From Fusobacteriia bacterium UBA1095 (lineage in GTDB: Bacteria; Fusobacteriota; Fusobacteriia; Bac17; UBA816): DNA of 64,000 bases. This document shows positions 24,570 through 64,000 of the stretch, piece by piece. The DNA is taken from assembly GCA_002313635.1 (NCBI GenBank), contig DCBY01000012.1:7859-71858 (forward strand), written 5' to 3'. The number at the start of each line of letters is the position of its first letter. Within the stretch, counting starts at the first letter, position 1. The translations under genes were made by a program, and so were the position numbers. The notes beneath the pieces were generated by a model. The model searched no databases. It worked only from the letters and a program-made list of their open reading frames with translations, and was not told where the DNA came from.

Positions 24570-24635
24570 TTTTTAACCTTAACTTGTTGATAATTAGTCC
24601 AACTCATGATATATTCGGAAGCGGAGGGAAAGAAA

Positions 24636-28971: not shown

Positions 28972-30516
28972 TTACTTCTTGTACTCTTCAGGCTTTTTTC
29001 CATTGCTATCTTCTTTATCCCTACCAAAACCTAAGCTTATAGCCCTGTCTGCTAAATCATTTTGTCCATAGTAGTAAAGGGCATGTAACACGTATGTCCT
29101 CTCATCATTGTCTAATTCAACAATAGACGATTGGCAACCCAGGATTCTTGGAAAACTGAAGTTCCTCTTATCTTTTTTCTGCCTCTCTAGTATATCTAAG
29201 CACTTACCAAATACATCCCATTTTTGCATTTGAACCGATAAGCTCACAAGATTATGAACTACTTCAGCATCATTTCGAGCTCTTCCTGCCATATCAACTC
29301 GAACATCTTTATCCATTTTGTTAAGCACACTCATAACCTGCTTGTCTGCACCTTTACGCAACATTCTAACCAAAAATATTTCATCATAAGGCTCAGCTAT
29401 ATTTACACCATACTTTCTATGATCTTTGCCTTTCTTGTTCAGTTCATGGTCCACAAAATCCACAACTAAGTCAAATAAATTGTTGTCAACCGCTATGTGA
29501 AGTGGAGAGTAACCTCTGCTATTACCTCCTCCGTTCCTATCAGGAAGTGGATCATAAGGAATTGTAAGATTTTTCTCTGATAATTTCCTGAAAGCATACT
29601 CCCAAAATTCAGATTTACTCTGAAGCTTAGCTACATAATTTTCTTTACCCTCTTCCCTACTATTTTCATCCAATACTGAAAGTCCTGAATTACCAAAATT
29701 ATCAACATAAAAATCAAAAGCACACTTGAAAGACTCTATGCTATAACCCAGACAGTGAGCTACCAAAGTCACATCATTAATTTTTTTATATTGTTCTTTA
29801 GAATCTCCAATAGTGTTAAGTAGATATTTGAAAATTTCGGATGAGTTAGCGGCAGCATATAGCAGTGGGTGACTGTCTTCCCCTATAGCCCAATCAAACC
29901 CATCTTGGATAAGAAAATCTATCATCTTTCTATTTTCAATCTTTTCATCTATACAAAATTGAATTAAGTTTTTACCTTCACTTCTAGCATCTTGATATTT
30001 AAAAGGTATCTCTTTTAACAGATCTTCATAACCATTTTTCAATGCAAAAGTGAAAAGAGGCCAGGAATTGTATGAAGAGTACCCCTTGAACATCTCATCA
30101 TATTCAGAGAGGTCATATAGAACTTGTAATCTATTCTCTTCATCTTGTCCAGCTAATTTAGCTAGTACAAAATCTTTTACATCTGGCTTAAGAGAGGAGA
30201 TGACATCTTTAGGGATAGAGGTAGTATCAATAAAACTCCAAACTTCTCTTACGACAGATTCATCCGTATTATTACTTTGCAAAATAGAACAAATACGTTT
30301 ATTCACAAATTTCAAAGTCCCTTCCTTGTCTTCAGATAGCGCTAACTTAAAGGCTTTAACAAAGGCTTCAGGTCCTTCCTTCAGGGATTTATCTAAATCT
30401 ACAGATTCACTGGGTTCTTCAACATCATCTACTAATTGTACATCTTCAACCTCTTTTTTATTAGGAGAACCCTTAAATGAGCACTCACATAAAAAAAGTA
30501 ATAACAAAACAAACAT
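28972..30516 (-). CDS. Hypothetical secreted/lipoprotein (514 aa) with degenerate ankyrin-like segments
   Basis: N-terminal signal MFVLLLLFLCECSF. ANK-like segments GYSPLHIAVDNNLFDLV and HPLLYAAANSSEIFKYLL. The stop abuts the convergent gene. Confidence 0.55.
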   Translation of the reverse strand: MFVLLLLFLCECSFKGSPNKKEVEDVQLVDDVEEPSESVDLDKSLKEGPEAFVKAFKLALSEDKEGTLKFVNKRICSILQSNNTDESVVREVWSFIDTTSIPKDVISSLKPDVKDFVLAKLAGQDEENRLQVLYDLSEYDEMFKGYSSYNSWPLFTFALKNGYEDLLKEIPFKYQDARSEGKNLIQFCIDEKIENRKMIDFLIQDGFDWAIGEDSHPLLYAAANSSEIFKYLLNTIGDSKEQYKKINDVTLVAHCLGYSIESFKCAFDFYVDNFGNSGLSVLDENSREEGKENYVAKLQSKSEFWEYAFRKLSEKNLTIPYDPLPDRNGGGNSRGYSPLHIAVDNNLFDLVVDFVDHELNKKGKDHRKYGVNIAEPYDEIFLVRMLRKGADKQVMSVLNKMDKDVRVDMAGRARNDAEVVHNLVSLSVQMQKWDVFGKCLDILERQKKDKRNFSFPRILGCQSSIVELDNDERTYVLHALYYYGQNDLADRAISLGFGRDKEDSNGKKPEEYKK

Positions 30517-35741: not shown

Positions 35742-36675
35742 TTACTTTCATCCAATCAAAAATAGTTTCATAAACTTTATCTCTGACATCTCTCCTAGAA
35801 AGGAATAGATCATGTATACCATCTTTTATAGGGATGTAAGTAACGTCTCTTCCTAAAAGCTTAGACCTATTCTTTATATCCTCAACATTCAAAAGAATAT
35901 CTGAATCTTGTTTATATTTTTTCAAATTAGATTCACTCTTATCTGAAGATAGTACTAGTACAGGCTTAACTATTCCTAAACCCTCTTCTAGCTCTTTTAT
36001 TCCATCTATCATAGCTCTGAACCACCCCATATATAATGGTATGTTTTTGTGAATAACCAGATCTTCATTGTCTATGTTAAGCCTGGTAATATAATCCTTA
36101 TACTTATCAGTATTGACATTATATTTTATAAAGGGAAATACTTTTGCTATTCCCATTGCTATAGGTCTCAAAATATAATCTCTAAGAGTATTGTCACTAA
36201 ATTTGAAAAGAGGGCTTATCAATATAAGAGCAGATATGTGATCTCTGTAAAAACCTCTTTTCATGTACAAGGAAGAAATCAGGCCACCCATAGAAAAACC
36301 TTTCAATATTATCTTATTGTGCCTCCTCAAAATTTCATATATTGCTATATCAATCTCATTGAAATATTCTTCTATTCTCTCTATATAAAATTTCTCTTCT
36401 TCACTAGTTATAGACCTACCGTGTTCTCTAAGGTCTAGCCCATAAAAAGAGTATCCATTCTTAATATAACTTTGAGCCTCTTCAGGATTGTGGACACAGT
36501 CAGCAAATCCATGTATGTATAGTACAGCTTCATTAGATTTTTGGTCACTGTAAACAAGAGTAGCTCTCTTGTTTTTGCTCAAAGTTATACTTCTCTTTTT
36601 GAATCCACTCAGAATATTATCTTTTTCAGGATCATTTATTTTTCCTTTTAAAGTTCCTGCTATTTCCCTACTCAT
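35734..36675 (-). CDS. Alpha/beta hydrolase (lysophospholipase/monoglyceride lipase-like)
   Basis: HGFADC...GFSMGG nucleophile elbow and a C-terminal DGIHD. 313 aa. Confidence 0.65.
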   Translation of the reverse strand: MSREIAGTLKGKINDPEKDNILSGFKKRSITLSKNKRATLVYSDQKSNEAVLYIHGFADCVHNPEEAQSYIKNGYSFYGLDLREHGRSITSEEEKFYIERIEEYFNEIDIAIYEILRRHNKIILKGFSMGGLISSLYMKRGFYRDHISALILISPLFKFSDNTLRDYILRPIAMGIAKVFPFIKYNVNTDKYKDYITRLNIDNEDLVIHKNIPLYMGWFRAMIDGIKELEEGLGIVKPVLVLSSDKSESNLKKYKQDSDILLNVEDIKNRSKLLGRDVTYIPIKDGIHDLFLSRRDVRDKVYETIFDWMKVNV

Positions 36676-37511
36676 ATCTTCTCCCCAAACTTTATTTCAT
36701 TATATACTTTTTTTAATCTATCTTTAGATATATGGGTATATATCTCTGTAGTAGACACACTGCTGTGACCTAAAATTTCTTGAACGTGCCTGATATTAGC
36801 TCCATTGTTCAACATTATTGTAGCAAAAGAGTGCCTAAATATGTGAGGATATATTTTTTTATCTACCCCAGCCTTAAGGGCATATTTTTTTAGTCTACTC
36901 CAATACAAATTTCTAGAAATATTAGGAAACAAAAGTTCTGTTCTGCCTTTGGTAAAAAGTTCTCTAAAATCTTTTATGTAGCTTGCTAAAGAGTCTGCTA
37001 CACCCTCTTGTATAGGAACTATTCTAACTTTATCTCCTTTACCTAAAATCCTCAAAGTTCTATTCTCTAAGTCAACATCGTGCAATTTTAAATTCACAAC
37101 TTCACTTATCCTAGATCCAGTATAGACTAGAATATCAAATATCATTCTATCTCTAACGCCCTTATAATCACCTGTAAAGGTTTGTGCAATTGCTTTTATC
37201 TCTTCACCGGAGAGGTATGACGGTATTTTTTGATCCATTTTTATACCTTTTATGTTTTCCATAGGGGAAAACTCTACATAATTATTAGAGAGTAAAAATC
37301 TATAGAGAGACTTCAAAGAAGAGATCTTTCTCACTAAACTTCTAGTGGAGCACTCCATAGACAAAAGATAATCTCTCACTTGGTCCTCTGAGACAACAAA
37401 AGTACCAAAAAAATCAAAAAAATCCTCTATATCTCTCTTGTAAGAAGAGAGTGTATTCTTGGAGAGACCCCTCTCCAAAATAATATAATCATAAAAAAGA
37501 TTCTGTAACAT
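36672..37511 (-). CDS. xerD: XerC/XerD-family tyrosine recombinase
   Basis: Catalytic tail HIFRHSFATIMLNNGANIRHVQEILGHSSVSTTEIYTHI (R..H..R..Y). 279 aa. Embedded in a housekeeping operon. Confidence 0.75.
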   Translation of the reverse strand: MLQNLFYDYIILERGLSKNTLSSYKRDIEDFFDFFGTFVVSEDQVRDYLLSMECSTRSLVRKISSLKSLYRFLLSNNYVEFSPMENIKGIKMDQKIPSYLSGEEIKAIAQTFTGDYKGVRDRMIFDILVYTGSRISEVVNLKLHDVDLENRTLRILGKGDKVRIVPIQEGVADSLASYIKDFRELFTKGRTELLFPNISRNLYWSRLKKYALKAGVDKKIYPHIFRHSFATIMLNNGANIRHVQEILGHSSVSTTEIYTHISKDRLKKVYNEIKFGEKI

Positions 37512-38500
37512 TAGTAAAACTGCTTTAATAACCTAAGATCATTCTCATATAGAAGACGTATGTCTTTTATCCCATATTTTATCATTACAAGCCTCTCTAT
37601 GCCCATACCAAAAGCAAAACCCCTAATATCACTCAAGGTATACCCAAAATGCTTCAAAACTTCAGGTGATATCATGCCACAACCCAAAATTTCTATCCAA
37701 CCACTCTTTTTACATACATTGCACCCCATACCACTGCATGAAGGGCAAGACATATCTAACTCAGCTGAAGGCTCTGTAAAGGGGAAAAAGTGTGGTCTAA
37801 ACCTTGTTTTAGCATCAGGAAATAGGGATACTATAAATTCATTCAAAATTGCCTTCAAATTAGCAAAAGTAGCACCTTTAACTAAAAATATCCCATCCAT
37901 CTGGTGGAACATAGGGGTATGAGTAGCATCATAGTCAGGTCTGTACACTTTACCAGCTGATATAGCAACTATTGGTGGTTTTTCCCTCTCTAAGCACCTT
38001 ATTTGTACCGTGGTAGTGTGTGTTCTTAACAACCTATTATCATGGAAATAGAAAGTATCACTTAAGTTCCTTGATGGATGTGAAGGGGGAACATTTAAAG
38101 CGTCAAAATTTCTAAAAACACTCTCTATCTCAGGGCCCTCTACAATATTGAATCCTAATCTAGAAAAAGCAGATCTTATTTCATTAATCATGCTAGTTAT
38201 AGGATGTAATGTACCAGAAGGGATTTCTCTACCTGGGATAGTCCTATCTATGCTTTCTGACTTTAATTTTTGGGCCATTGCCTTCTTATTTAACACAGAC
38301 AGCTGTTTGTTATATATCTCTTCAAGCTCTCTCTTCGTTTGATTTATTATTTTACCTCTCTCAGCTTTTTCGCTAGCATCTAGGTGTTTAAGCTCTTTAG
38401 TCTGTTCTGCTATTATCCCAGATTTACCGAATATCTTTACCCTTAATCTTTCAAGCTCATCCAAACTTTTAGCAACTAAGAGTTGTTCTTTTATTTCCAA
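37511..38500 (-). CDS. pheS: Phenylalanine--tRNA ligase alpha subunit
   Basis: Class II aaRS motifs FRPHFFPFTEPSAE and GFAFGMGIERL. 329 aa. Confidence 0.9.
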   Translation of the reverse strand: MEIKEQLLVAKSLDELERLRVKIFGKSGIIAEQTKELKHLDASEKAERGKIINQTKRELEEIYNKQLSVLNKKAMAQKLKSESIDRTIPGREIPSGTLHPITSMINEIRSAFSRLGFNIVEGPEIESVFRNFDALNVPPSHPSRNLSDTFYFHDNRLLRTHTTTVQIRCLEREKPPIVAISAGKVYRPDYDATHTPMFHQMDGIFLVKGATFANLKAILNEFIVSLFPDAKTRFRPHFFPFTEPSAELDMSCPSCSGMGCNVCKKSGWIEILGCGMISPEVLKHFGYTLSDIRGFAFGMGIERLVMIKYGIKDIRLLYENDLRLLKQFY

Positions 38501-38502
38501 AA

Positions 38503-39768
38503 TTATCTCTCCTTCTTAAAATAGTCTACACTTATCAGGGGTATAAAAAATATCATAGCAAAAAAACCAGAAATAATTAAGGACAAGAAGAAACTTGATG
38601 ATGATAAACGGGGAGTTATAAAATAGGCAAAAGATATGGATATGTATGACCATAACCCTGCAAAACCTGTAGAAGTTGAGACTGCGTCTCTATTTGACAC
38701 CTCCGCTATAGATAGCCCTATTAGCATTTGAGGACCATATACAAAAAATCCTGTTAAAAATATAAATAGTAGCTCTAAGTAGAAAAAGTCAGTAAACACC
38801 CAAGAAAGGTAAGAAAAAATAGCTATCCCGATACTAAATAATATATTGACTAAAGATCTTTTGCCATCAAAGAGCCTATCTGAAGCAAATCCAGATAAAA
38901 AACTACCTAGCATTCCACCAAATTCAAAAAAAGATCTAATCAAAATAGACTGAGAGTAGCTGTAACCTCTCTCTACTAAAAAAATTGTTAAAAATGCTGA
39001 GATAGACCCCCTAACGAAGTATATAAAAACAGAGGAGATTATCAGAGTCCACACGTAAGCATTGGTAAACACGTGAGAAAAGAGTTTATGCAGAAGGAAG
39101 CCCTTTTTTTTCTTAAAACTTTCACTACTATCATGCATCTCAACTATAGGTTCAAGTTCTACCTCTTCAGGTGAAGATCTAAGGCCAAAAAACAGGGCAA
39201 AGCTAAACAATACAGAGATAAATCCTGGAAGGTAAAAACCCATCAACCAATTATTAGCTAAAAAGGCATAGATTAAATTAAGGAAGAATTCACTTATGTT
39301 ATGAGAGGTACTCCATAACCCCCACCAACTACCTCTCTCTTTTTGAGTAAACCAGTTAGTTAACATCTTTGCAACTGGTGGCCAACCGCAGCCTTGGAAT
39401 ATTCCATTAAAAATCCATAAAATCAATATTAGATAAAAGGATCTACTTTGAACTACAAGTAAATTTAAAACACCACTTACAAGAAGTCCTATGGACATCA
39501 ATACACGTGGACTTGTTAAATCGGTTAAAACTCCCATAAAAAATTTACTAAAAGCATAGGCTAGAGAAGATAAGCTCAACACCAAACCTAATTCGTATTT
39601 AGTCAATATTCCATCATTGATAAAAAATAGCCCTGATATTTTTAAGCTACTTCTAGTAAAATAATAAAAAATATAGCCGAAATACATGGACAAAAATATT
39701 CTACTTCTCCAATAGACATATTTTTCATTTAAGTTACCTCTACTAAAAAGTCTATATAAAAAATTCAC
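38503..39768 (-). CDS. MFS organophosphate:Pi antiporter (GlpT/UhpT/UhpC family)
   Basis: 12 predicted TM segments and the family motif GFASDRLFDGKRS. 421 aa. Confidence 0.7.
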   Translation of the reverse strand: MNFLYRLFSRGNLNEKYVYWRSRIFLSMYFGYIFYYFTRSSLKISGLFFINDGILTKYELGLVLSLSSLAYAFSKFFMGVLTDLTSPRVLMSIGLLVSGVLNLLVVQSRSFYLILILWIFNGIFQGCGWPPVAKMLTNWFTQKERGSWWGLWSTSHNISEFFLNLIYAFLANNWLMGFYLPGFISVLFSFALFFGLRSSPEEVELEPIVEMHDSSESFKKKKGFLLHKLFSHVFTNAYVWTLIISSVFIYFVRGSISAFLTIFLVERGYSYSQSILIRSFFEFGGMLGSFLSGFASDRLFDGKRSLVNILFSIGIAIFSYLSWVFTDFFYLELLFIFLTGFFVYGPQMLIGLSIAEVSNRDAVSTSTGFAGLWSYISISFAYFITPRLSSSSFFLSLIISGFFAMIFFIPLISVDYFKKER

Positions 39769-39769
39769 C

Positions 39770-40804
39770 CTATAAAACCCCTATATCTTTGGAAAGGTAG
39801 ATATCGTGCACTAAATTCATTAATTTAACGCTTTCATCAAGATTTTTTCTAAAAATCTTCCTTCCAGGAATAACGCCAGATCCACCAGCAGCCTTGTTAA
39901 CTAAACACGTTAAAGCAAGATCCTTAAGGTCATTTCCGTGGGATGCACCACCAGAGCTTAGCAGAGGAACTCTACCAGATAGGCAACCCAAAAGTTGAAA
40001 TCTTAGCATATCAACTGGATGATCAGTTAAATAAGTGGAATCCTTCATTTTAGGATTGATATCTTGGAACCCTTCAGGAACAGTTGGAAATTTCTGTTTA
40101 ACTATATCTGCTTCTATTGCAGATGCCAGGTAGTTGGCCTGAGCAGTCATATCCGCTGCTGAATGGTAATCTCTCTCTCTTTTAAAGGATTCATTTCGTA
40201 AGTACGCCCAAACTATAGTAAACATACCTTTTTCATGTGCATATTTAAAACACTTGGATACCCTAGATATCTGGTCTTTAGTGTCATTAGCTCCTAAATA
40301 TAGGGTAGCAGCTACCCCTGAAGCTCCCATATCAAAAGCCTGATCAATCTCAGCAAAAAAAGATTGCTTAGGAGATTCATTAGAAAAAATATCATTGTGA
40401 TTTACTTTAAGTATAATAGGAATTTTATGAACATATTTTCTACAGACACTACCTAGGTTTCCTAAAGAGGATGCAACTGCAGAGACCTCTGTTTTTAATG
40501 CAAGTTCAAAGATATTAACTGGATCAAACATTCCAATGTTAGAGGAAAAAGAGACAGCAGCACCATGCTCTATACCATGATCCAATGGAAGAATCGATAA
40601 ATAACCTGTTCCAGAGAGCCTTCCACTATTGAAAAGATGTCCCAAATTTTTCAACACATTAGGGTTTCTATCACTGTTCAGATATGTTCTATCTATGAAA
40701 TCAACCCCTGGCAGACTCAATAGGGACTTATCTATCTTAGGGGTATAGTCTAAAACATTTTTTAAACTATCAACACCGATTATATCCTCTAATAGCTTTA
40801 ACAT
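39770..40804 (-). CDS. fbaB: Class I fructose-bisphosphate aldolase (FbaB/DhnA type)
   Basis: Collinear with E. coli FbaB throughout: GRLSGTGYLSILPLDHGIEHG, LKVNHN, VWAYLRN, DIVKQK, SGGA, NKAAGG.G.I.GRK.F. Confidence 0.88.
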   Translation of the reverse strand: MLKLLEDIIGVDSLKNVLDYTPKIDKSLLSLPGVDFIDRTYLNSDRNPNVLKNLGHLFNSGRLSGTGYLSILPLDHGIEHGAAVSFSSNIGMFDPVNIFELALKTEVSAVASSLGNLGSVCRKYVHKIPIILKVNHNDIFSNESPKQSFFAEIDQAFDMGASGVAATLYLGANDTKDQISRVSKCFKYAHEKGMFTIVWAYLRNESFKRERDYHSAADMTAQANYLASAIEADIVKQKFPTVPEGFQDINPKMKDSTYLTDHPVDMLRFQLLGCLSGRVPLLSSGGASHGNDLKDLALTCLVNKAAGGSGVIPGRKIFRKNLDESVKLMNLVHDIYLSKDIGVL

Positions 40805-40886
40805 TTAACATCCTCCAATAGATCAAAATAAGGGGTGAAGAAAACACCCTTCACCCCTCTCATGCAGATATATGAAAAACAATTAG

Positions 40887-42353
40887 TTACTTAGACTCAC
40901 CTGAAATCTTTTTAAATTCCACATCAAGTCTAGAAACAGCGTAAATCCATATAAGAAGTGCTCCTCCTATTATAAACAGAAGGTAAGGTATAACAGCCTC
41001 TATCTTACCTCCAAACAGAGGCAGAAGGAACATAGACAGCAAAGAAGCACCTAAGCTCTTTCCTAACCTACCTCCAGCACCGTCAACAGCAGCTTTACCC
41101 TTAATCTTTGTCTCTTGATCTAAAGGAATATATACAGCTTCCTTTGTAGGATCAAATAGAGTATATTTAAAGGCTTTTATGAACACAACCTGCAACATTC
41201 CAACCATAACAGCCAAGAATAGTGAAGACACTCCAAATGTTGTCTCAAATATAGCCAAATCTCGTCCAAAAAGCATAAAAGTAAAGAAGATCGCACCCAA
41301 AATAGAAGCTATCAAAGGTGTCAAAAGCGCTGCAAGCTTCCAACTCTTTCTTATTATCCATGAGGATGCAAAAAGTATAAGTATTATAGAAGTTATACCT
41401 ATCAAGAAAACCTCTGCAGAGTATATGTTTGAAAGAGTTTGGAAGTCACCACCAGAAGCTTTTTGTAAAGCTTTAACCTGACTCTTCCAAACAGCCTCTA
41501 TAAGACTTATAACAAAACCGTAAGAAAACACAAGTACAGCTATCAATCCTAAATATTTTGATCTAGCCAAAAACATGAAAGATTCCACAAGCCCTAGTTT
41601 TGGCTTCTTTTTCTTGTCTTTCTTTTCTTCTATCTGATAGGCATCAGGATCAGCTGCAATTTTGTCAGTAAACCATTTGTATATAAACATAATAGCCGCA
41701 CCAGAGACTAAAACTATGTATACAAGGTATAACATTGTCTCTCTGCTACCAAACATTCTCAAGAATGCTGCTGAAAAAAGAAGAGCAACATTAGGGCCCA
41801 ATGCCAAGAAACTGTAAAATCTCTTAGATTGTGCAACACTAGTTATCTCATTTATAAATGTCCATATAGCAATAGACATGCCAAATGTTCCCCAAAGCTC
41901 AGCGTGTATGTAAAACAGTGAAAAGAACCAATATCTTATAGCCCCCCACAAACCAAATAAATTTGGTGCAACTGAAATAGCGTAATCAAAAAATGAGTGT
42001 AGAGCTAAGTAATTGCGAGCTGGATAAAGAACAAAGGCAAACAGGGCAAAGAAAGCCACAAAATAAGATATGACTATGTAGAATAGCCCGTGTCTACCAA
42101 ATACGTTACTCAAAGAGTTATACACCAAAGTATATATGATAACCATCGGAGTAACACCAAAAGTCTTTACATAGTAAAGAGTCTCAGCACCAGCGCTGTC
42201 CAAAATGAATATGTCCTTCATATTTCTTAGCATTGAATAATTCAAGCTAACTAAAAGGAAAAGAATAGTCAAAGGTAAAAATTTCTTTAACTCATATCCG
42301 TGTATAGGCCATATAACCGACCTAATAGGACCAAACTTTTTTTGTTCTTGCAT
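40887..42353 (-). CDS. tlc: Nucleotide transporter, ATP/ADP translocase family (NTT/Tlc)
   Basis: The N-terminus IRSVIWPIHGYELKKFLPLTILFLLVSLNYSMLRNMKD closely parallels rickettsial and chlamydial Tlc/Npt1. About 12 TM segments. 488 aa. Confidence 0.85.
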   Translation of the reverse strand: MQEQKKFGPIRSVIWPIHGYELKKFLPLTILFLLVSLNYSMLRNMKDIFILDSAGAETLYYVKTFGVTPMVIIYTLVYNSLSNVFGRHGLFYIVISYFVAFFALFAFVLYPARNYLALHSFFDYAISVAPNLFGLWGAIRYWFFSLFYIHAELWGTFGMSIAIWTFINEITSVAQSKRFYSFLALGPNVALLFSAAFLRMFGSRETMLYLVYIVLVSGAAIMFIYKWFTDKIAADPDAYQIEEKKDKKKKPKLGLVESFMFLARSKYLGLIAVLVFSYGFVISLIEAVWKSQVKALQKASGGDFQTLSNIYSAEVFLIGITSIILILFASSWIIRKSWKLAALLTPLIASILGAIFFTFMLFGRDLAIFETTFGVSSLFLAVMVGMLQVVFIKAFKYTLFDPTKEAVYIPLDQETKIKGKAAVDGAGGRLGKSLGASLLSMFLLPLFGGKIEAVIPYLLFIIGGALLIWIYAVSRLDVEFKKISGESK

Positions 42354-42419
42354 AATTTCTCCTTCTTAAATTTAGAAAATTACAGCTTAAGTATACCAAT
42401 ATAACAATGAGCATGTCAA

Positions 42420-42448
42420 TTGACACTAAGGTTCAAAAAGTGATAATA
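42420..42448 (+). promoter_or_regulatory. Sigma70-like promoter for the tRNA cluster: TTGACA, 16-17-nt spacer, (TG)ATAATA
   Basis: ttgacactaaggttcaaaaagtgataata ends ~12 nt before tRNA-Leu. Confidence 0.6.
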
Positions 42449-42459
42449 TCTCTTGTAGT

Positions 42460-42546
42460 GCCGCGGTGGCGGAATGGTAGACGCACAGGACTTAAAATCC
42501 TGAGGGCTTTTTGCCCGTGCCGGTTCAAGTCCGGCTCGCGGTACCA
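42460..42546 (+). tRNA. tRNA-Leu (anticodon UAA), long variable arm, CCA encoded
   Basis: Cloverleaf folded by eye: acceptor GCCGCGG, anticodon loop cuUAAaa, T-arm GCCGGTTCAAGTCCGGC, ACCA end. Confidence 0.85.
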
Positions 42547-42555
42547 GAGTATAGG

Positions 42556-42632
<77 letters not shown>

Positions 42633-42660
42633 AGTGACACTCTGATCCAATTTTTATTGA

Positions 42661-42737
<77 letters not shown>

Positions 42738-42740
42738 AGA

Positions 42741-42817
42741 GGCGATGTAGCTCAGTTGGTAAGAGCGTGCGGTTCATACCCGCAAGGTCGGTGGTTCAAA
42801 TCCACTCATCGCTACCA
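42741..42817 (+). tRNA. tRNA with a CAU anticodon (elongator Met, or Ile2 if lysidinylated)
   Basis: GGCGATGTAGCTCAGTTGGTAAGAGC...uuCAUac...GGTTCAAATCC...CCA. It lacks the initiator features. Confidence 0.8.
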
Positions 42818-42976: not shown

Positions 42977-44278
42977 CTAAACTAAGTATCTTGCCCATAT
43001 GTAGAAAGCACTAACAGCTGTAGTAGCTATGGAGAATACAATTCCGTACTTAGTAAACTCCATAAAACTTATCTTATATCCGCTCTTCTTTGAAATATCC
43101 GAAGCTAGTATATTAGCAGATGCCCCTATAAGGGTTCCATTACCCCCTAGACAAGCTCCTAAAGATAGAGCCCACCACATAGCTCCCTTTATTACAGAAA
43201 GTGGAATGTCACCATAAATATGGGAAATTTCAGGTATCACCGAATTTTTTATCATAGGAGCTATAGTAGCTGTAAAAGGTATGTTATCTAACAAGGATGA
43301 GACAATACTTGAGACCCACAATACCATCATAGAAGTAAGAGCAAGGCTACCTCCTGTTATTACTAATACAAATTCTCCTATCATCTTAAGTAGTCCTACT
43401 TTATTCAAACCACCAACTAACACAAAAAGCCCAGCAAAGAAGAGAATAGTGTTCCATTCAACTTTATGGAGGATTTTTTCAGGATTTTTACCTGTAACTA
43501 TAACCATGAAAGCAGCTCCTAGAAGAGAAGATACAGCAGGACTTAGATTTAGAACTCTGTGAAGAAGAAAACTAAGCAAAACTAGAGAAAAGATAGATAG
43601 AGACCTCTTAAGAGCAACAAACTTACCTATAGCTCTTGTAGGATCCATATCCATAAGCTGAGCTCTTCTATATCTTGTTACTTTAAGTCTTTTTCTAAAA
43701 AATAACCAAGATATCAGACAGAAGACTACCATATTCATTATAGAAATAGGCACAAGGTTGAACAAGAAATCATTAAAAGTGTATCCAGAGTAAGCTGCCA
43801 CTATTAAGTTAGGTGGATCACCTATCAAAGTTGAGGCTCCACCTATATTTGAAGCTATAGCTTGAGATATAACAAAAGGAACAGGTGTTATATCCAACTG
43901 CTTAGCTAACAGAATAGTAATAGGTGTTAAAACCATTATCGTAGTAACATTGTCTAGAAAAGCAGACAGAAATGCCGTCATTAAACTTAAAACAATTAGT
44001 AGAGGGAAAGGAAAACCCTTAACCAATTGAGCTATCTTTATAGCTATCCATTCAAAAATACCCGTCTCAGCTATAACAGCTACCATTATCATCATTCCCA
44101 GTAAAAGAGCCAATATCTCAAAATCTATGGCTGCTAAGGCCTCTTCACTACTTAAAACCCCCGTAGCTATCATCAAAGTGGAACCAAGAACAACCACCAT
44201 GGAAGAAGGCAACTTTTCTGTGGCTATTGCTAAATAACTAAATAAAAAAATAGAAACCGCAATTAAAAACTTTAGCAT
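42977..44278 (-). CDS. ArsB/NhaD-superfamily anion permease (CitMHS/YbiR-like)
   Basis: 433-aa polytopic membrane protein. Two repeated halves, each with a GDPPN / G..LIGASAN re-entrant-loop-like motif typical of the ArsB/NhaD ion-transporter superfamily. Confidence 0.6.
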   Translation of the reverse strand: MLKFLIAVSIFLFSYLAIATEKLPSSMVVVLGSTLMIATGVLSSEEALAAIDFEILALLLGMMIMVAVIAETGIFEWIAIKIAQLVKGFPFPLLIVLSLMTAFLSAFLDNVTTIMVLTPITILLAKQLDITPVPFVISQAIASNIGGASTLIGDPPNLIVAAYSGYTFNDFLFNLVPISIMNMVVFCLISWLFFRKRLKVTRYRRAQLMDMDPTRAIGKFVALKRSLSIFSLVLLSFLLHRVLNLSPAVSSLLGAAFMVIVTGKNPEKILHKVEWNTILFFAGLFVLVGGLNKVGLLKMIGEFVLVITGGSLALTSMMVLWVSSIVSSLLDNIPFTATIAPMIKNSVIPEISHIYGDIPLSVIKGAMWWALSLGACLGGNGTLIGASANILASDISKKSGYKISFMEFTKYGIVFSIATTAVSAFYIWARYLV

Positions 44279-44287
44279 GTGTATCTC

Positions 44288-45196
44288 CTATAAGTGCAGT
44301 ACTTTTTTTACTATATCTTCGGCAGATATCCTGCCGATGTACTTCCCCCTCTCAACAACATAAACTGTATTAACCTTTTTCTTTACCATCAAAAAGGCAA
44401 CCTCTAAGACAGATGCTTTTCTGTCCACTACCAGTGCCTTTTTACAAATATCCCCTACTTTGAGCTTTTTTTCCATCTTGAAGTAATCCTCAAAGGGTTC
44501 AGAGCTTCTTAAAAACCCTAAATTACTTAGAGAGAGTGCCTCTTTTGGCATACCTATCTTTATAAGTTCTATACTGCCAACTTTCCCAATAAATTTCCCA
44601 TTATCAACTACAGGTAGCTCAAAATATCCTTCACAAATAAGCTTGGAAGCTAACTCATGAAGGGCAGAATTAGCATTTACAGATGGTACTGCCTCTAAAA
44701 TATGTTCCGCGTTTATTTGATCATCGAATTGAGGTTGGTTATCAGTTATAAAATCAACTATCTCTTTTGTGGTTTTTGCATTACGTAAAATATCGAAGGC
44801 TAAGCCTTCAGATGCCATCTGACTTATTGCCCCCATAACCGAGAGAAGTATTCTATTTTGAAATTCAGGGACAACTACTAGGAATATTATTTTTATTTCT
44901 TCTAGTTCACCAGAAAGAGATTTGACAGAGACTCTTTTTTTAGGTATCCCCACAGCTAGCATAACGTCCTTGTAATCAGGAGATCTAGTGTGGGGTAAAA
45001 AAATACCCTCTCCTATTGCCGTAGGGAGGGTTTGCTCTCTATTTAATAAATCTTCTTTTATAGCTTTTTTATATCTTTTAAAATATTTATCTTTTGAAGA
45101 GACACTGTCTACCATAGCACCTATAAGCTGCTCGGCACTCTCCCCTTCTACTTCCAAAAAGATAAAATTGTTATCTAAATAATTCGACAGCTTCAT
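44288..45196 (-). CDS. PTS EIIA(Ntr/Fru)-type domain fused to a tandem CBS pair; likely regulator of the adjacent permease
   Basis: The N-terminus NFIFLEVEGES...LPTAIGEGIFLPHTR is EIIA-2-like, with His in the PHTR motif. C-terminal CBS motifs ELPVVDNGKFIGKV and VYVVERGKYIGRISAEDIV. Confidence 0.6.
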   Translation of the reverse strand: MKLSNYLDNNFIFLEVEGESAEQLIGAMVDSVSSKDKYFKRYKKAIKEDLLNREQTLPTAIGEGIFLPHTRSPDYKDVMLAVGIPKKRVSVKSLSGELEEIKIIFLVVVPEFQNRILLSVMGAISQMASEGLAFDILRNAKTTKEIVDFITDNQPQFDDQINAEHILEAVPSVNANSALHELASKLICEGYFELPVVDNGKFIGKVGSIELIKIGMPKEALSLSNLGFLRSSEPFEDYFKMEKKLKVGDICKKALVVDRKASVLEVAFLMVKKKVNTVYVVERGKYIGRISAEDIVKKVLHL

Positions 45197-45217: not shown

Positions 45218-45712
45218 TCACAAAACAGTCAGCCTAGACAAAAATCTTCTCTCAGAGATCTTTTTCAGGACCTTCTCTGCATGGCCTAACACTTCAAAAT
45301 TGCGCCATATAAACTCAACATTCCCATTAGGGTTTATTAAGTAAGTGGTCCTAGGAATAGATCTTATTTCTCTATCTAATACCTGCTTTGTAACCTTAGG
45401 ACTATACAATTTAGTTATAGAAGACTCTGAATCACTTAAAAAGGAGAATTGTGCATTAATTTTATTGATAAAATTAAGATTGCTATCAACAGATGAGTTA
45501 GAAACTCCCACTACAATAGCACCAAGAGAATCAAATTTCTTTATAAGCTTGTTGAAATCACTTGCTAATTTCAGTGAATTTGGATTAAAGTTTTTGGAAA
45601 CGAAGTAAACAACTACCCATTTACCTTTGAAATCACTTAACTTAAAATCATTGTTATTTTGATCCCTCAGCAAAAAGTCAGGGGCTTTGTCCCCTACTAA
45701 TAACTTCTGCAT
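45218..45712 (-). CDS. Thioredoxin-fold protein (AhpC/TSA-TlpA-like) lacking the CxxC/peroxidatic Cys
   Basis: GDKAPDF.L.D..G..F.LSDFKGKWVVVYF follows the AhpC/TSA pattern. The redox position reads SKNF instead of the redox Cys, and the protein has no Cys at all. Confidence 0.55.
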   Translation of the reverse strand: MQKLLVGDKAPDFLLRDQNNNDFKLSDFKGKWVVVYFVSKNFNPNSLKLASDFNKLIKKFDSLGAIVVGVSNSSVDSNLNFINKINAQFSFLSDSESSITKLYSPKVTKQVLDREIRSIPRTTYLINPNGNVEFIWRNFEVLGHAEKVLKKISERRFLSRLTVL

Positions 45713-59495: not shown

Positions 59496-59501
59496 TTGTA
59501 T

Positions 59502-59530
59502 TTGACAGTATCCGCTAAATTTTGTAGAAT
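59502..59530 (+). promoter_or_regulatory. Consensus sigma70 promoter for rpmH-rnpA-yidC: TTGACA, 17-nt spacer, TAGAAT
   Basis: tttgacagtatccgctaaattttgtagaat lies ~50 nt upstream of the rpmH TTG start. Confidence 0.7.
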
Positions 59531-59579
59531 TTCTAGAGTAGAAAAACCAAAAAATAAAATTGAGAGATTAGGTGAGAAA

Positions 59580-60013: not shown

Positions 60014-60014
60014 A

Positions 60015-62081: not shown

Positions 62082-63626
62082 ATGTTAATTTTTATTTTCT
62101 TTTTTAGTTTTTTGAATGCATTTTCTGTTTCAAAAGAGCTGAGTAATCTAGATAAGCATCTTGAGTATCTATCGGAGAGAGGTGTTATAGATTCAACACA
62201 TGTTTCCTTTATAAAGAACAACAATTTAACAAAAAAAGATAGCATATTCTATTTTTATAAAGTGCTGAAGGTTGTAGACAGAGATAAAGCTACCAAGGAA
62301 GATTTAGAAGTTTTAGAGAGTATAGTAGCGGATATATCAGAGTATATAAATGAGTTTAAATTAGAATTAGAGAGTAATGACAGTAAGTTTAAATCCTACT
62401 CAAGACAATTCGAAGATACTTTAGATAAAGTAGAAGAGTACGAAAAGACACTTCATGATCTGGAAGAAGAACTTTCAAAATTGAGAGAAGTAGTGGAGAA
62501 AAGCATAGATTATGACAAAAATAACTTAAGGAAATTTTTGAAAAAAGTTGACGTCTCTTTAGGCCTTAAAGGTGCTTTTGGTAAATCTAAACTCTCTTCA
62601 AAGTATGTTTATGAAATAGACCTTAATATGAAAATAGATGGAGATTTTAAGGTCAGAGCCTATAACTCTAATTTTCAATCCTTTACCAGTCTCTACACCT
62701 TTACTTCTACAACTGAGTTAGGTAACCTAAATTTCCATTCTCCTAAATATAAGAAAGCGTTTGTATCTCCTACAAAAGAGATTTTTCTAGAAATATTTGA
62801 CAAATTTGGTCTGGGTTTTTACAATGATTCATTTCAGTCCTATGTACTTTTTCCATCAGAAGGAAGTGATGAAGATATAAACTTCATCTTTAATTTAGAT
62901 ACGTCCATATTAGGTCTGTCACTGCTTGTAGATCCTTTTAGGGTAGATAATAGTATTTTAAGTTATGTTCCTTTTGCTGAATTATCCCTGAATATACCTG
63001 TATCTAGCTCATTTTTCTTTGGACCTGGTTTGGAAAAAGGGAATGACAAATATATGGCTCTATTGTTTTTAGGGTTTGAAGGATATGGCATAGATCTGAA
63101 TTTGAAATACAAGCATGAGCTGCTTGGTGAGAAAGATATGGTTTTAGTCCCAAGATTTGCTTATAGGTTCAATGATAAAAATAAAATAGGTGCCCTCATT
63201 GATTGGTCCCTACTAGAAAAAGAGGATTTTATAAACAGATTTAAGATAGTACTTGACAGTTTTATATCCAGTCATTTTGAAATGAGACTAATTTTTGGTA
63301 TGAAAAAGGAGAATGGCTATTCAGTGAACTTTTTAGCAGGTAGAGTGAATTATAGTAGCGAAGATATCAACTTTTTCTTGGGAGCCTTTTTAAAAGATCT
63401 GAATGAGAGAAAATTGGCTCTAGCAGTAAATGTAGATTTTCCAACTGAATTTTACAAAATTTTTGTAAGGTACATATACAGTAACTTTTTGGAATGCTAT
63501 AAGGATTTAAATTTTGATTTTGAAGGAAATCATGTCTCCACTACCTCTCAGGTTGGGTGCCTAGAGTGCACCGGTTCAAACAGAAATTTTGGAGAACTGT
63601 TTATAGGTTTAGAAATAGATATATGA
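62082..63626 (+). CDS. Hypothetical secreted protein (514 aa): N-terminal coiled-coil then a beta-rich domain
   Basis: Signal peptide MLIFIFFFSFLNAFS. Heptad-rich E/K/L segment at aa 60-150. Beta-strand-like remainder. Confidence 0.5.
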   Translation: MLIFIFFFSFLNAFSVSKELSNLDKHLEYLSERGVIDSTHVSFIKNNNLTKKDSIFYFYKVLKVVDRDKATKEDLEVLESIVADISEYINEFKLELESNDSKFKSYSRQFEDTLDKVEEYEKTLHDLEEELSKLREVVEKSIDYDKNNLRKFLKKVDVSLGLKGAFGKSKLSSKYVYEIDLNMKIDGDFKVRAYNSNFQSFTSLYTFTSTTELGNLNFHSPKYKKAFVSPTKEIFLEIFDKFGLGFYNDSFQSYVLFPSEGSDEDINFIFNLDTSILGLSLLVDPFRVDNSILSYVPFAELSLNIPVSSSFFFGPGLEKGNDKYMALLFLGFEGYGIDLNLKYKHELLGEKDMVLVPRFAYRFNDKNKIGALIDWSLLEKEDFINRFKIVLDSFISSHFEMRLIFGMKKENGYSVNFLAGRVNYSSEDINFFLGAFLKDLNERKLALAVNVDFPTEFYKIFVRYIYSNFLECYKDLNFDFEGNHVSTTSQVGCLECTGSNRNFGELFIGLEIDI

Positions 63627-64000
63627 TAAAGATAGAAAATATAAAAATAAGAGATGAAGAGATATTAAAAGTTCAAGATATGTTTGACAAATCTCTCTCC
63701 TTGGATGGATCTATATGGATGGATCAAAACATATACAAAATAAAAAAAATTAATTTAGACTCTGATTTCTTAGTTATTATTGGAGCAGGAGGCTCTTATC
63801 TGGGTATAGAGGCTGCTATAAATTTCCTGGGAAAGAACGAAAAAGTAATATTTATAGGGAATAATTTTGATGCAGAAGACATTTTAAGAGAACTTTCTAA
63901 AATAAAAGGAAAAAGTATAATTGTCAATGTGATATCAAGATCTTCTAATACTTTAGAGCCAATTCTGTCCTTAAAAATCTTAGAGAAATTTATTGAAGAA
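63623..64000 (+). CDS. pgi: Glucose-6-phosphate isomerase, N-terminal fragment (3' partial at the window edge)
   Basis: DFLVIIGAGGSYLG and NVISRSSNTLEP resemble the PGI SIS-domain motifs (GIGGS.LG, ISKSG.T.E). ATGA overlap with the upstream gene. Confidence 0.5.
   Translation, partial: MIKIENIKIRDEEILKVQDMFDKSLSLDGSIWMDQNIYKIKKINLDSDFLVIIGAGGSYLGIEAAINFLGKNEKVIFIGNNFDAEDILRELSKIKGKSIIVNVISRSSNTLEPILSLKILEKFIEE

What the first reader, a model, noticed from the sequence alone, without database searches (positions are those of the whole stretch)
38503..42353. Energy- and carbon-parasitism module: NTT ATP/ADP translocase, class I FbaB aldolase and UhpC/GlpT-type sugar-phosphate antiporter in a row
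A Tlc/NTT nucleotide transporter lies upstream of fbaB and an organophosphate:Pi antiporter, all on one strand. They are followed by pheS, xerD and other core genes, so this is core-genome rather than island DNA. Importing host ATP and phosphorylated sugars is the hallmark of obligate intracellular or epibiotic bacteria (Chlamydiae, Rickettsiales, Dependentiae, Cardinium-like). Together with the ankyrin expansion, it argues that this organism depends on a eukaryotic host.
Basis: partly seen in the sequence, partly recalled or inferred. Interest (0 to 1): 0.6.

Follow-up and report, generated by a model that had tools for sequence, protein, structure and literature searches.

The report
ATP-importer gene cluster in marine Fusobacteria
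A widespread, uncultured planktonic member of the Fusobacteria carries, next to its replication origin, the transporters that Chlamydia-like intracellular bacteria use to take ATP and sugar phosphates from a host cell, so this phylum probably contains a host-dependent "energy parasite" lineage that has not been described.

Summary
Three intact minus-strand genes fill 38503-42353 exactly: an NTT/Tlc nucleotide transporter (488 aa), a class I FbaB-type aldolase (344 aa) and an OPA-family organophosphate:phosphate MFS antiporter (421 aa). They are followed by pheS and a xerD-like gene. The order NTT-aldolase-MFS recurs in four diverged relatives (NTT 58-64% identical), and the pheS-xerD continuation in the three whose contigs reach that far, so it is old core DNA, not an island.

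It is an uncultured Fusobacteriota MAG (NCBI HCB63973-75; GyrB 63-65% identical to Fusobacterium/Ilyobacter). A 2017 survey found no NTT in that phylum. The NTT groups with those of Cytophagales/Amoebophilaceae/Cardinium endosymbionts. This points to horizontal transfer; its direction is unresolved.

Host dependence is plausible but not shown. Supporting evidence is the ankyrin expansion, a G6P isomerase-like gene nearby, and a phosphoglycerate mutase inside the cluster in one relative. Three points count against a tight "module". The NTT has its own promoter and terminator. One relative has the NTT without the other two genes. Substrates are inferred only; neither ATP/ADP versus NTPs nor G6P versus G3P is settled.

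Verdict: a new member of a known kind, in a new phylum.

The parts
42390..42419 (-). Sigma-70-like promoter for the NTT gene: TTGACA-18 nt-TATACT with an extended -10 TG. An AAGGAG ribosome-binding site and the ATG at 42353 follow.
   Evidence: (11 of 12 matches, the best in the region) and the sequence. Its -35 is part of a palindrome, TGTCAATTGACA, shared with a divergent plus-strand promoter at 42420-42447 that faces the tRNA cluster. This is a consensus match only; no transcript data exist.
40887..42353 (-). NTT/Tlc nucleotide transporter, 488 aa (NCBI HCB63973.1, 'ADP/ATP carrier protein').
   Evidence: PF03219 447.5 bits and TIGR00769 405.9 bits against a cut-off of 387.2. Full-length alignment to the solved ATP/ADP exchangers 9j3n (E 7e-103, residues 3-480) and 9j3j (E 1e-85). 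Residues K63, E152, E286 and K432 align with Arabidopsis NTT1 K155, E245, E385 and K527. Exact-sequence match to the NCBI record.
40830..40859 (-). Intrinsic-terminator-like hairpin (13-bp stem, U-rich tail) in the 82-nt gap between the NTT gene and fbaB.
   Evidence: The RNA fold of the gap gives -25.6 kcal/mol, z = -3.35, and 0 of 200 shuffles fold as well. Relative L001 has an analogous hairpin with a U tract (z = -3.45). L087 (32-nt gap) and L085 (11-nt gap) have none.
39770..40804 (-). Class I fructose-1,6-bisphosphate aldolase, FbaB/DhnA type, 344 aa (HCB63974.1).
   Evidence: NF006707 415.1 bits against a cut-off of 327; PF01791. Homologous to Thermoproteus tenax class I FBPA 1ojx, with D75, Y201 and K236 aligned to its D24, Y146 and K177 (residues counted along the printed alignment). 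A GGAGGA ribosome-binding site precedes the ATG.
38503..39768 (-). OPA-family MFS organophosphate:phosphate antiporter, UhpC-like, 421 aa (HCB63975.1, annotated 'hypothetical protein').
   Evidence: PF07690 136 bits. NCBIfam order: UhpC 292.9 > OPA subfamily TIGR00881 273.7 > GlpT 219 > UhpT 155, all below their cut-offs. PDB: GlpT 1pw4 at E 1e-54 and SLC37A4 at E 1e-40; R39, K75, H156 and R253 align with GlpT R45, K80, H165 and R269. The nearest proteins outside the lineage are 34-41% identical, and the named ones are mostly Chlamydiota UhpC-like. The GTG start lies 1 nt after the fbaB stop codon.
36672..38500 (-). pheS (38500..37511) and a xerD-like recombinase (37511..36672), packed tightly behind the MFS gene (a 2-nt gap, then a 1-nt overlap). 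These are context that shows the DNA is core genome.
   Evidence: The same order occurs in L001, L085 and L087.
42460..42817 (+). tRNA cluster (Leu-UAA and three CAU tRNAs), divergent from the NTT gene. It neighbours the NTT gene in every relative examined.
   Evidence: relatives.
42977..45196 (-). CitMHS/ArsB-superfamily anion permease (44278..42977) and a PTS-EIIA(Ntr)-like protein with a CBS pair (45196..44288). This gene pair is a conserved neighbour of the NTT gene.
   Evidence: Also present next to the NTT in L001, L085 and L088/L089.
63623..64000 (+). 5' part of a glucose-6-phosphate isomerase-like gene (374 aa in full), cut off by the end of the window.
   Evidence: The window translation is identical to the start of L090:11542-12666. 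The full protein scores NF010697 280.3 bits (cut-off 443, not reached) and PF00342 38.4 bits (cut-off 22).

Best explanation
The window comes from an uncultured, globally detected planktonic Fusobacteriota lineage that probably lives in or on eukaryotic cells and takes energy and carbon from them.

Shown:
- The three genes are intact and belong to their families.
- Known catalytic or substrate-binding residues are conserved in all three proteins.
- The gene order is conserved across four deeply diverged relatives.
- The organism is a member of the Fusobacteriota.

Inferred mechanism:
- The NTT sits in the inner membrane and exchanges host ATP for bacterial ADP (plus phosphate), as chlamydial Npt1 and plastid NTT1 do.
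- The UhpC-like antiporter imports a phosphorylated sugar, most likely glucose-6-phosphate, in exchange for phosphate.
- The G6P isomerase-like enzyme encoded about 24 kb away converts it to fructose-6-phosphate.
- After phosphorylation, FbaB splits fructose-1,6-bisphosphate into triose phosphates for lower glycolysis.

Transcription: the NTT gene is probably transcribed from its own strong promoter and mostly terminated at the hairpin. fbaB, the MFS gene, pheS and xerD form a translationally coupled string. It is read either by terminator read-through or from an unidentified promoter inside the NTT gene.

Origin: the NTT gene was exchanged horizontally with Cytophagales/Amoebophilaceae-type endosymbionts before the lineage diversified.
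For: Gene identities and residues.

Organism: GyrB is 63-65% identical to Fusobacterium and Ilyobacter GyrB, and every named protein among the top 120 hits is from those genera. The exact window proteins are deposited as 'MAG TPA ... [Fusobacteriota bacterium]'. The NTT lies on the same contig as dnaA, gyrB and gyrA, and the same arrangement is seen on roughly 100-130 independent contigs. It is therefore neither a binning error nor a chimera.

Conservation: TLC-DeoC-MFS is found in L001, L085, L087 and the P0006 contig. Identities to the window in L001, L085 and L087 are NTT 58-64%, FbaB 49% and MFS 43-48%.

Glycolytic link: relative L085 has a dPGM phosphoglycerate mutase (TIGR01258, 260.7 bits) inserted between the NTT gene and fbaB. 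The window organism has a PGI-like gene.

Horizontal transfer: in an NJ tree, the lineage NTTs form one clade (99% support). Together with the Cytophagales/Amoebophilus/Cardinium NTTs and P0054 they form a 100%-supported clade, separate from the Chlamydiae/Legionella/plant NTTs. The NTT is 50% identical to that of a Cytophagales MAG, while PheS from that same MAG is only 40% identical.

Signs of host interaction: three large and three weaker ankyrin proteins in the window and two more of 1196 and 975 aa just outside it. Ankyrin proteins also occur in relatives. SOD and a peroxiredoxin are present in a phylum of anaerobes.

Literature: the nearest named NTTs belong to obligate intracellular Amoebophilaceae, where they are predicted ATP/ADP antiporters (PMC12342168).
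Against: There is no functional assay. The lineage's NTT is not in the subclade that holds the two solved ATP/ADP exchangers. No characterised NTP/H+ or NAD-type NTT could be added to the tree, so the substrate class is open.

The MFS protein fails every curated equivalog cut-off. In an NJ tree it sits on a long branch outside the group that contains chlamydial and gammaproteobacterial UhpC and E. coli GlpT.

The NTT has its own promoter and terminator. It occurs without fbaB or the MFS gene beside it in L088/L089.

NTTs also exist in free-living bacteria (PMC5381601). One Tara identifier is from the 0.22-3 um fraction, which is not what is expected of a bacterium that lives only inside larger cells. 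Genome-wide pathway loss was not examined.
Confidence: 0.6

Rival explanations
1. The NTT supplies nucleotides rather than energy. It would be a proton-coupled or exchange importer of several NTPs (like Chlamydia Npt2, Protochlamydia NTT2/3/5 or Rickettsia Tlc4/5) that compensates for lost nucleotide synthesis. The organism would still be host-dependent, but not an ATP parasite.
For: The lineage's NTT clade is separate from the clade that holds the solved ATP/ADP exchangers. The four conserved charged residues are invariant in all 56 NTTs aligned, so they say nothing about substrate. Only one NTT gene is visible per locus, and a single broad-specificity carrier could cover both needs.
Against: The best PDB match is the chlamydial ATP/ADP carrier, over its full length (348.7 bits). 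The nearest named relatives are annotated or predicted as ATP/ADP antiporters in Amoebophilaceae, though these too are untested.
Confidence: 0.2
2. The organism is a free-living or loosely particle-associated bacterium. The NTT scavenges extracellular nucleotides, and the three genes are neighbours only through inherited synteny in a housekeeping region near the origin of replication. There would be no functional module.
For: NTTs occur in free-living bacteria (PMC5381601). A Tara gene identifier comes from the 0.22-3 um fraction. The NTT has its own promoter and terminator. In L088/L089 the NTT is not next to fbaB or the MFS gene. fbaB and the MFS gene are packed with pheS and xerD, which are functionally unrelated.
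Against: According to PMC5381601, the free-living NTTs are largely multidomain or lie outside the clade of characterised transporters. This protein is a single-domain NTT that passes TIGR00769. Its closest named relatives are from obligate endosymbionts. Ankyrin genes are densely expanded. A glycolytic gene is inserted into the cluster in L085. Ambient ATP in sea water is far too low for counter-exchange to be useful (general knowledge).
Confidence: 0.15
3. The MFS carrier imports glycerol-3-phosphate, a triose phosphate or phosphoglycerate rather than glucose-6-phosphate, and FbaB runs in the gluconeogenic direction, as E. coli FbaB does on C3 substrates. The pair would then build hexose phosphates for the cell envelope from imported C3 phosphates. 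This can hold together with host dependence.
For: The MFS protein keeps all four GlpT substrate-site residues. It fails the UhpC equivalog cut-off (292.9 against 564). It is not nested among UhpC proteins in the NJ tree. Cardinium, whose NTT is in the sister clade, retains only the three-carbon part of glycolysis (PMC12342168).
Against: Scores favour UhpC-like over GlpT-like by 70-100 bits: NCBIfam 292.9 against 219, and about 290-300 bits to chlamydial homologues against 189.6 to GlpT. A PGI-like gene is present, and that enzyme is needed in either direction.
Confidence: 0.25

Closest known systems
Chlamydial host-metabolite import set: Npt1 ATP/ADP exchanger (solved as PDB 9j3n; Lin et al., Nature 2025, 641:797, cited in PMC13176400), the UhpC-type glucose-6-phosphate/phosphate antiporter (HPTcp of C. 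pneumoniae; from my own knowledge) and a DhnA/FbaB-type class I aldolase (C. trachomatis CT215; from my own knowledge)
   Same: The same three protein families serve the same proposed logic: import ATP and a hexose phosphate, then run glycolysis without a hexokinase step. The NTT aligns over its full length with 9j3n. The nearest named homologues of the MFS protein outside the lineage are mostly chlamydial UhpC-like proteins at 34-41% identity.
   Different: The phylum is different (Fusobacteriota). None of the chlamydial NTT loci fetched has fbaB or an OPA-family gene within 10 kb, whereas here the three genes are a conserved neighbourhood. The NTT belongs to a different subclade from chlamydial Npt1. 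Only one NTT gene is seen per locus.
NTTs of Amoebophilaceae and other Cytophagales endosymbionts (Candidatus Amoebophilus, Candidatus Cardinium, Cytophagales MAGs)
   Same: These are the closest named sequences, at 42-51% identity, and they form the sister clade, with 100% support for the joint clade. They are single-domain NTTs in AT-rich genomes that also encode many ankyrin-type proteins for host interaction.
   Different: The host phylum of the gene differs, so the relationship is through horizontal transfer, whose direction is unresolved. The Bacteroidota loci lack the fbaB-MFS neighbours. Their NTTs are predicted, not assayed, to be ATP/ADP antiporters (PMC12342168).
Plastid ATP/ADP transporter NTT1 of Arabidopsis (PDB 9j3j)
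   Same: Same family, E 1e-85. K155, E245, E385 and K527, reported as functionally important (Trentmann et al. 2000; from my own knowledge), are all conserved.
   Different: It is more distant than the chlamydial protein, and it is an organelle envelope carrier, not a bacterial one.
E. coli GlpT and UhpC (OPA family, TC 2.A.1.4) and E. coli FbaB
   Same: The MFS protein has the MFS fold family and keeps the paired arginines of the phosphate-binding site. FbaB passes an NCBIfam equivalog model for class I FBA.
   Different: The MFS protein reaches no equivalog cut-off and lies on a separate long branch. In E. coli these genes are not linked to each other or to an NTT.

Membership tests
NTT / Tlc nucleotide transporter family (Pfam PF03219; TIGR00769; TC 2.A.12) | Profile match above the curated thresholds over the full length | tested here: met
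   PF03219 447.5 bits (cut-off 21), model positions 3-491 of 491. TIGR00769 405.9 bits (cut-off 387.2).
NTT / Tlc nucleotide transporter family (Pfam PF03219; TIGR00769; TC 2.A.12) | Colinear homology to structurally solved NTTs | tested here: met
   9j3n at E 6.9e-103, query residues 3-480. 9j3j at E 1.1e-85, query residues 17-486.
NTT / Tlc nucleotide transporter family (Pfam PF03219; TIGR00769; TC 2.A.12) | Conserved charged transmembrane residues (Arabidopsis NTT1 K155, E245, E385, K527; Trentmann et al. 2000, from my own knowledge) | tested here: met
   One unique spacing match locates them in 9j3j. The window has K63, E152, E286 and K432, and the residues are invariant across the 56 aligned NTTs (one sequence has a gap at the K155 column).
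NTT / Tlc nucleotide transporter family (Pfam PF03219; TIGR00769; TC 2.A.12) | About 12 transmembrane helices | tested here: inconclusive
   A crude Kyte-Doolittle scan found 9 partly merged segments. Twelve are implied only by the full-length alignment to the solved 12-helix proteins.
Class I NTT (ATP/ADP counter-exchangers such as Npt1, PamNTT1, Tlc1, AtNTT1) | Falls inside the clade of characterised ATP/ADP exchangers, away from NTP/H+ and NAD types | tested here: inconclusive
   In the NJ tree it is in a sister clade with Bacteroidota endosymbiont NTTs, not with 9j3n or 9j3j. No characterised class II or class III sequence was available to place.
Class I NTT (ATP/ADP counter-exchangers such as Npt1, PamNTT1, Tlc1, AtNTT1) | Measured ATP/ADP counter-exchange | not testable with these tools
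   This needs radiolabelled uptake and back-exchange assays in E. coli or proteoliposomes.
Class I fructose-bisphosphate aldolase, FbaB/DhnA (archaeal-type IA) family | Equivalog-level profile match | tested here: met
   NF006707 415.1 bits against a cut-off of 327, model positions 9-354 of 355.
Class I fructose-bisphosphate aldolase, FbaB/DhnA (archaeal-type IA) family | Schiff-base lysine with the catalytic Tyr and Asp (T. tenax FBPA K177, Y146, D24; from my own knowledge) | tested here: met
   K236, Y201 and D75 align with them. The Y146F mutant entry 2yce confirms the register.
OPA family of the MFS (organophosphate:phosphate antiporters; GlpT, UhpT, UhpC, PgtP, SLC37) | Homology to solved OPA members, and the two substrate-binding arginines plus Lys and His of GlpT (R45, R269, K80, H165; from my own knowledge) | tested here: met
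   1pw4 at E 1.1e-54 and SLC37A4 at E 8.5e-41. R39, R253, K75 and H156 are aligned.
UhpC (glucose-6-phosphate receptor/transporter) equivalog | Score above the curated cut-off of NF008661 | tested here: not met
   292.9 bits against a cut-off of 564. It is still the best-scoring OPA model. In the NJ tree the lineage clade lies outside the group that contains chlamydial and gammaproteobacterial UhpC and E. coli GlpT. I therefore file it as 'UhpC-like OPA antiporter', not as UhpC.
Obligate host-dependent (energy-parasitic) bacteria | Loss of nucleotide, ATP-generating or hexose-phosphorylation pathways across the genome | not tested
Within that view, tmk, surE and a PGI-like gene are present and no de novo pur or pyr genes were seen.
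Obligate host-dependent (energy-parasitic) bacteria | Physical association with a eukaryotic host | not testable with these tools
   The only indirect evidence is the ankyrin expansion. Against it, one Tara identifier is from the 0.22-3 um fraction.

The most novel reading that the evidence does not exclude
A deep-branching Fusobacteriota lineage, found in Tara Oceans surface water and in Lake Mendota, has become an energy parasite or endosymbiont of eukaryotes, probably protists. It would have done so by sharing an NTT gene with Amoebophilaceae-like Bacteroidota and fixing it near the replication origin, next to a sugar-phosphate importer and an aldolase. This would be the first NTT-bearing, host-dependent clade in a phylum previously reported to have no NTT. 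It would also be an independent origin of the Chlamydia-style 'ATP plus hexose-phosphate' lifestyle.
Probability: 0.5. Interest if true: 0.75.

Novelty: new member of a known kind. Interest (0 to 1): 0.6.

Why it matters
NTT-based ATP theft is the textbook signature of Chlamydiae, Rickettsiales, Amoebophilaceae, Microsporidia and plastids. The 2017 cross-domain survey states that no NTT was found in Fusobacteria (PMC5381601). None of the eight papers in the searchable library that mention both Fusobacteria and an ADP translocase reports one.

Here the NTT lies on the same contig as dnaA, gyrB and gyrA of a Fusobacteriota MAG. That MAG recurs on about a hundred or more contigs from ocean metagenomes, and it has relatives in a freshwater lake. 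If the lineage is host-dependent, it adds a new phylum to the short list of bacteria that evolved energy parasitism. It would also give a clear case of NTT exchange between unrelated symbiont lineages. And it points to an overlooked, widespread symbiont or parasite of plankton that could be targeted with FISH and single-cell methods.

The genes are already deposited and auto-annotated (HCB63973-75), so the sequence is not new.

Tried and rejected
1. A genome-contig scan with the NTT alone found no relative. The second scan, with a clade alignment, returned 80 named loci, none from the window's own lineage. The organism therefore had to be identified through GyrB homologues and exact-sequence look-up.
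2. My first guess of a spirochaete, based on the Borrelia-like gyrA-gyrB-dnaA layout and the strand-linked GC skew, was rejected.
3. I looked for the triplet in other NTT-bearing phyla. tblastn of FbaB and the MFS protein against all 84 loci then held found them only in the lineage relative L001/L002. The one exception was a 30%-identical MFS gene about 2 kb from the NTT in a Caedimonas MAG.
4. A Biopython BLOSUM-distance tree timed out. I replaced it with a Kimura-corrected NJ tree with 200 bootstraps.
5. The structure paper for 9j3n and 9j3j (Lin et al. 2025) is not held, so the ATP-binding residues could not be checked. No characterised class II or III NTT sequences were obtainable.
6. The MFS NJ tree did not resolve the substrate class, and GlpT was placed implausibly among the chlamydial sequences.
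7. The nearest FbaB relatives are generic: an Acidobacteria-type cluster at 50% and Deltaproteobacteria at 38%. This gives no clear sign of where fbaB came from.
None found a report of this lineage or of an NTT in Fusobacteria.
10. E. coli-type DnaA boxes are not enriched in the window: 21 matches against 19.6 expected.

Full report
**Observation.** The three ORFs are present exactly as reported, all on the minus strand:
- NTT, 42353..40887 (488 aa)
- aldolase, 40804..39770 (344 aa)
- MFS transporter, 39768..38503 (421 aa)

They are followed by pheS (38500..37511), a xerD-like recombinase (37511..36672), an alpha/beta hydrolase, xseA and topA. G+C content (0.34-0.36) is close to that of the rest of the window (0.30-0.38).

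**What the proteins are.**

ORF1 is a true NTT.
- It scores PF03219 447.5 bits and TIGR00769 405.9 bits, above the 387.2 cut-off.
- It aligns end to end with the two solved ATP/ADP exchangers, 9j3n (E 7e-103) and Arabidopsis NTT1 9j3j (E 1e-85).
- It keeps the four charged residues that correspond to AtNTT1 K155, E245, E385 and K527, here K63, E152, E286 and K432. Their functional importance is from my own knowledge (Trentmann et al. 2000).
- The alignment starts at residue 3, so the 488-aa reading is right and the shorter Tara gene call (444 aa) is not.

ORF2 passes an equivalog model for class I fructose-bisphosphate aldolase (NF006707, 415 bits against 327). It keeps the Asp, Tyr and Schiff-base Lys of the Thermoproteus tenax enzyme, here D75, Y201 and K236.

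ORF3 is an OPA-family MFS antiporter.
- It matches GlpT 1pw4 at E 1e-54 and SLC37A4 at E 1e-40, and R39, K75, H156 and R253 align with GlpT R45, K80, H165 and R269.
- Among curated models UhpC scores best (292.9 bits), ahead of GlpT (219) and UhpT (155), but no equivalog cut-off is reached.
- I therefore call it UhpC-like, not UhpC.

**Anatomy.**
- A near-consensus promoter (TTGACA-18-TATACT, with an extended -10 TG) ends 36 nt upstream of the NTT start codon. An AAGGAG ribosome-binding site lies between them.
- The -35 element of this promoter is half of a palindrome shared with a divergent promoter that faces a tRNA cluster (Leu-UAA and three CAU tRNAs, 42460-42817).
- The 82-nt gap after the NTT holds a 13-bp hairpin with a U-rich tail (-25.6 kcal/mol, z = -3.35). 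It leaves only about 25 nt before the fbaB start codon, which is too little for a promoter.
- fbaB, the MFS gene, pheS and xerD are separated by 1 nt, 2 nt and a 1-nt overlap.
- So the NTT looks like its own transcription unit. The downstream string must be read through the hairpin or from a promoter inside the NTT gene (inference).
- Relative L001 has an analogous terminator. L087 and L085, with gaps of 32 and 11 nt, do not.

**Organism.**
- The window also carries gyrA, gyrB, dciA and dnaA on one side, and rpmH, rnpA, yidC and mnmE on the other, with a GC-skew sign change at about 59-60 kb. This is the replication-origin region.
- GyrB is 63-65% identical to Fusobacterium and Ilyobacter GyrB. 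Every named protein among the top 120 hits is from those genera. Unnamed relatives are 70-74% identical.
- Exact look-up shows that the window proteins are deposited as 'MAG TPA ... [Fusobacteria/Fusobacteriota bacterium]': the NTT is HCB63973.1 'ADP/ATP carrier protein', FbaB is HCB63974.1, and the MFS protein is HCB63975.1 'hypothetical protein'.
- The proteins looked up are seen on roughly 95-130 contigs each, the longest 174 kb, including Tara Oceans samples. One identifier reads TARA_138_SRF_0.22-3.
- One relative comes from the Lake Mendota time series (PMC11374980).

**Conservation.**
- The order TLC-DeoC-MFS occurs in L001/L002, L085/L086, L087 and the P0006 contig. The pheS-xerD continuation is seen in the first three; the P0006 contig ends before it.
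- Protein identities to the window in L001, L085 and L087 are NTT 58-64%, FbaB 49%, MFS 43-48% and PheS 59-63%. The arrangement is therefore old and is kept by selection or by strong synteny.
- In L085 a 2,3-BPG-dependent phosphoglycerate mutase (TIGR01258, 260.7 bits) sits between the NTT gene and fbaB. This ties the neighbourhood to glycolysis.
- In L088/L089 (NCBI GCA_964342345.1) the NTT lies beside the same tRNA cluster and the same CitMHS and EIIA-CBS genes, but it is inverted, only 44% identical, and has no fbaB or MFS gene nearby.
- None of the 80 named NTT loci from other phyla has the triplet.

**Origin of the NTT.**
- In an NJ tree of 56 NTTs (477 columns, 200 bootstraps) the lineage NTTs are monophyletic (99%).
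- Together with the Cytophagales MAG, Amoebophilus and Cardinium NTTs and the divergent L088-type protein P0054, they form a 100%-supported clade. It is separate from the clade that contains Chlamydiae, Legionellales, 9j3n and 9j3j.
- The NTT is 50% identical to that of a Cytophagales MAG whose PheS is only 40% identical to the window's. This is the signature of horizontal transfer.
- The direction of transfer is open, because the Fusobacteriota clade is sister to the Bacteroidota clade rather than nested in it, and P0054 branches outside both.
- Major et al. 2017 state that no NTT was found in Fusobacteria (PMC5381601).

**Mechanism (inferred).** The proposed scheme is:
- ATP enters in exchange for ADP through the NTT.
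- A sugar phosphate, most likely G6P, enters in exchange for phosphate through the UhpC-like carrier.
- The G6P isomerase-like protein, whose gene begins at window 63623, isomerises it. That protein scores NF010697 280 bits (below the cut-off) and PF00342 above its cut-off.
- FbaB cleaves the resulting fructose-1,6-bisphosphate.

This is the set of families used by Chlamydia (Npt1, UhpC/HPTcp, DhnA; from my own knowledge). Other features fit a bacterium that interacts with aerobic eukaryotic cells. The window has three large and three weaker ankyrin proteins, two more of 1196 and 975 aa lie just outside it, and relatives have them too. SOD and a peroxiredoxin are also present.

**Caveats.**
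- The substrate class of the NTT (ATP/ADP, several NTPs, or NAD) was not resolved.
- The MFS clade sits on a long branch outside the group that contains chlamydial and gammaproteobacterial UhpC and GlpT.
- NTTs exist in free-living bacteria, and the 0.22-3 um fraction identifier is not what is expected of a strictly intracellular organism.
- Genome-wide pathway loss could not be examined.

**Verdict.** Host dependence is plausible (about 0.6). The 'module' is a conserved neighbourhood, not a proven operon. The most interesting result is taxonomic: a standard single-domain NTT, with its sugar-phosphate partner, in a widespread planktonic Fusobacteriota lineage. I found no report of this. It is a new member of a known kind.

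Noticed in passing
window 13-1368 (+), 1504-4236 (-), 8246-10120 (+); weaker 6278-7849, 13214-14794, 28972-30516 (all -); L092:12869-16459 and L092:16984-19911: A dense ankyrin-repeat expansion. The window has three large ANK proteins (451, 910 and 624 aa) and three ~520-aa paralogue-like proteins with weak Ank_2 hits. Two more giants (1196 and 975 aa) lie just left of the window on the same contig. Several neighbouring ORFs have no Pfam match (4422-5240, 5432-6262, 12324-13196).
   Followed up: partly
window 57294-60014: The replication-origin region. It holds gyrA, gyrB, dciA (57294-57728) and dnaA on the minus strand, a gap of about 430 bp, then rpmH (about 59496-59711), rnpA (59708-60013), yidC and mnmE on the plus strand, with a GC-skew sign change. 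E. coli-type DnaA boxes are not enriched in the window (21 matches against 19.6 expected).
   Followed up: partly
window 42390-42817: Back-to-back promoter-like sites share the palindrome TGTCAATTGACA. One drives the NTT gene and the other a tRNA cluster (Leu-UAA and three CAU tRNAs). The tRNA-Leu/Met cluster is next to the NTT gene in every relative examined (L001, L085, L087, L088).
   Followed up: partly
window 42977-45196 (-): A CitMHS/ArsB-superfamily anion permease and a fusion of a PTS-EIIA(Ntr)-like domain with a CBS pair form a gene pair next to the NTT in L001, L085 and L088/L089 as well. A CBS (adenosyl-ligand sensing) regulator beside an ATP importer is suggestive, but its function is unknown.
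   Followed up: no
L088:2832-4295 and L089:2768-4231 (NCBI GCA_964342345.1): One lineage member has its NTT at the same tRNA/CitMHS locus, but inverted, only 44% identical (its CitMHS is 51-52% identical), and without fbaB or the MFS gene beside it. In the NJ tree this NTT branches outside both the lineage clade and the Bacteroidota clade. It could be a replacement by a second transfer or a fast-evolving copy; this is unresolved.
   Followed up: partly
L085:4262-4894: In one relative, a 2,3-BPG-dependent phosphoglycerate mutase gene (TIGR01258, 260.7 bits) is inserted between the NTT gene and fbaB.
   Followed up: yes
L090:15285-20088 (same organism, about 3-8 kb beyond the right end of the window): A Peptidase_C11 gene is followed by an array of about 14 small ORFs (54-100 aa). 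Most begin with a leader that ends in a double glycine (..VSGG, ..ASGG or ..AGG), like precursors of bacteriocins or RiPP peptides. Two Peripla_BP_6 binding-protein genes follow.
   Followed up: partly
window 24606-25250 (+) and 45218-45712 (-): An Fe/Mn superoxide dismutase and an AhpC/Prx-type peroxiredoxin occur in a member of a phylum known for anaerobes. This fits life in oxic surface water or inside aerobic host cells.
   Followed up: no
window 62082-63626 (+) and 63623-64000 (+): A 514-aa ORF with no family match overlaps by 4 nt the start of the glucose-6-phosphate isomerase-like gene, which the window end cuts off. The two look translationally coupled.
   Followed up: partly
window 10337-11953 (+): A gene for a protein with AAA-ATPase_like and PDDEXK_9 domains sits among the ankyrin genes.
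   Followed up: no
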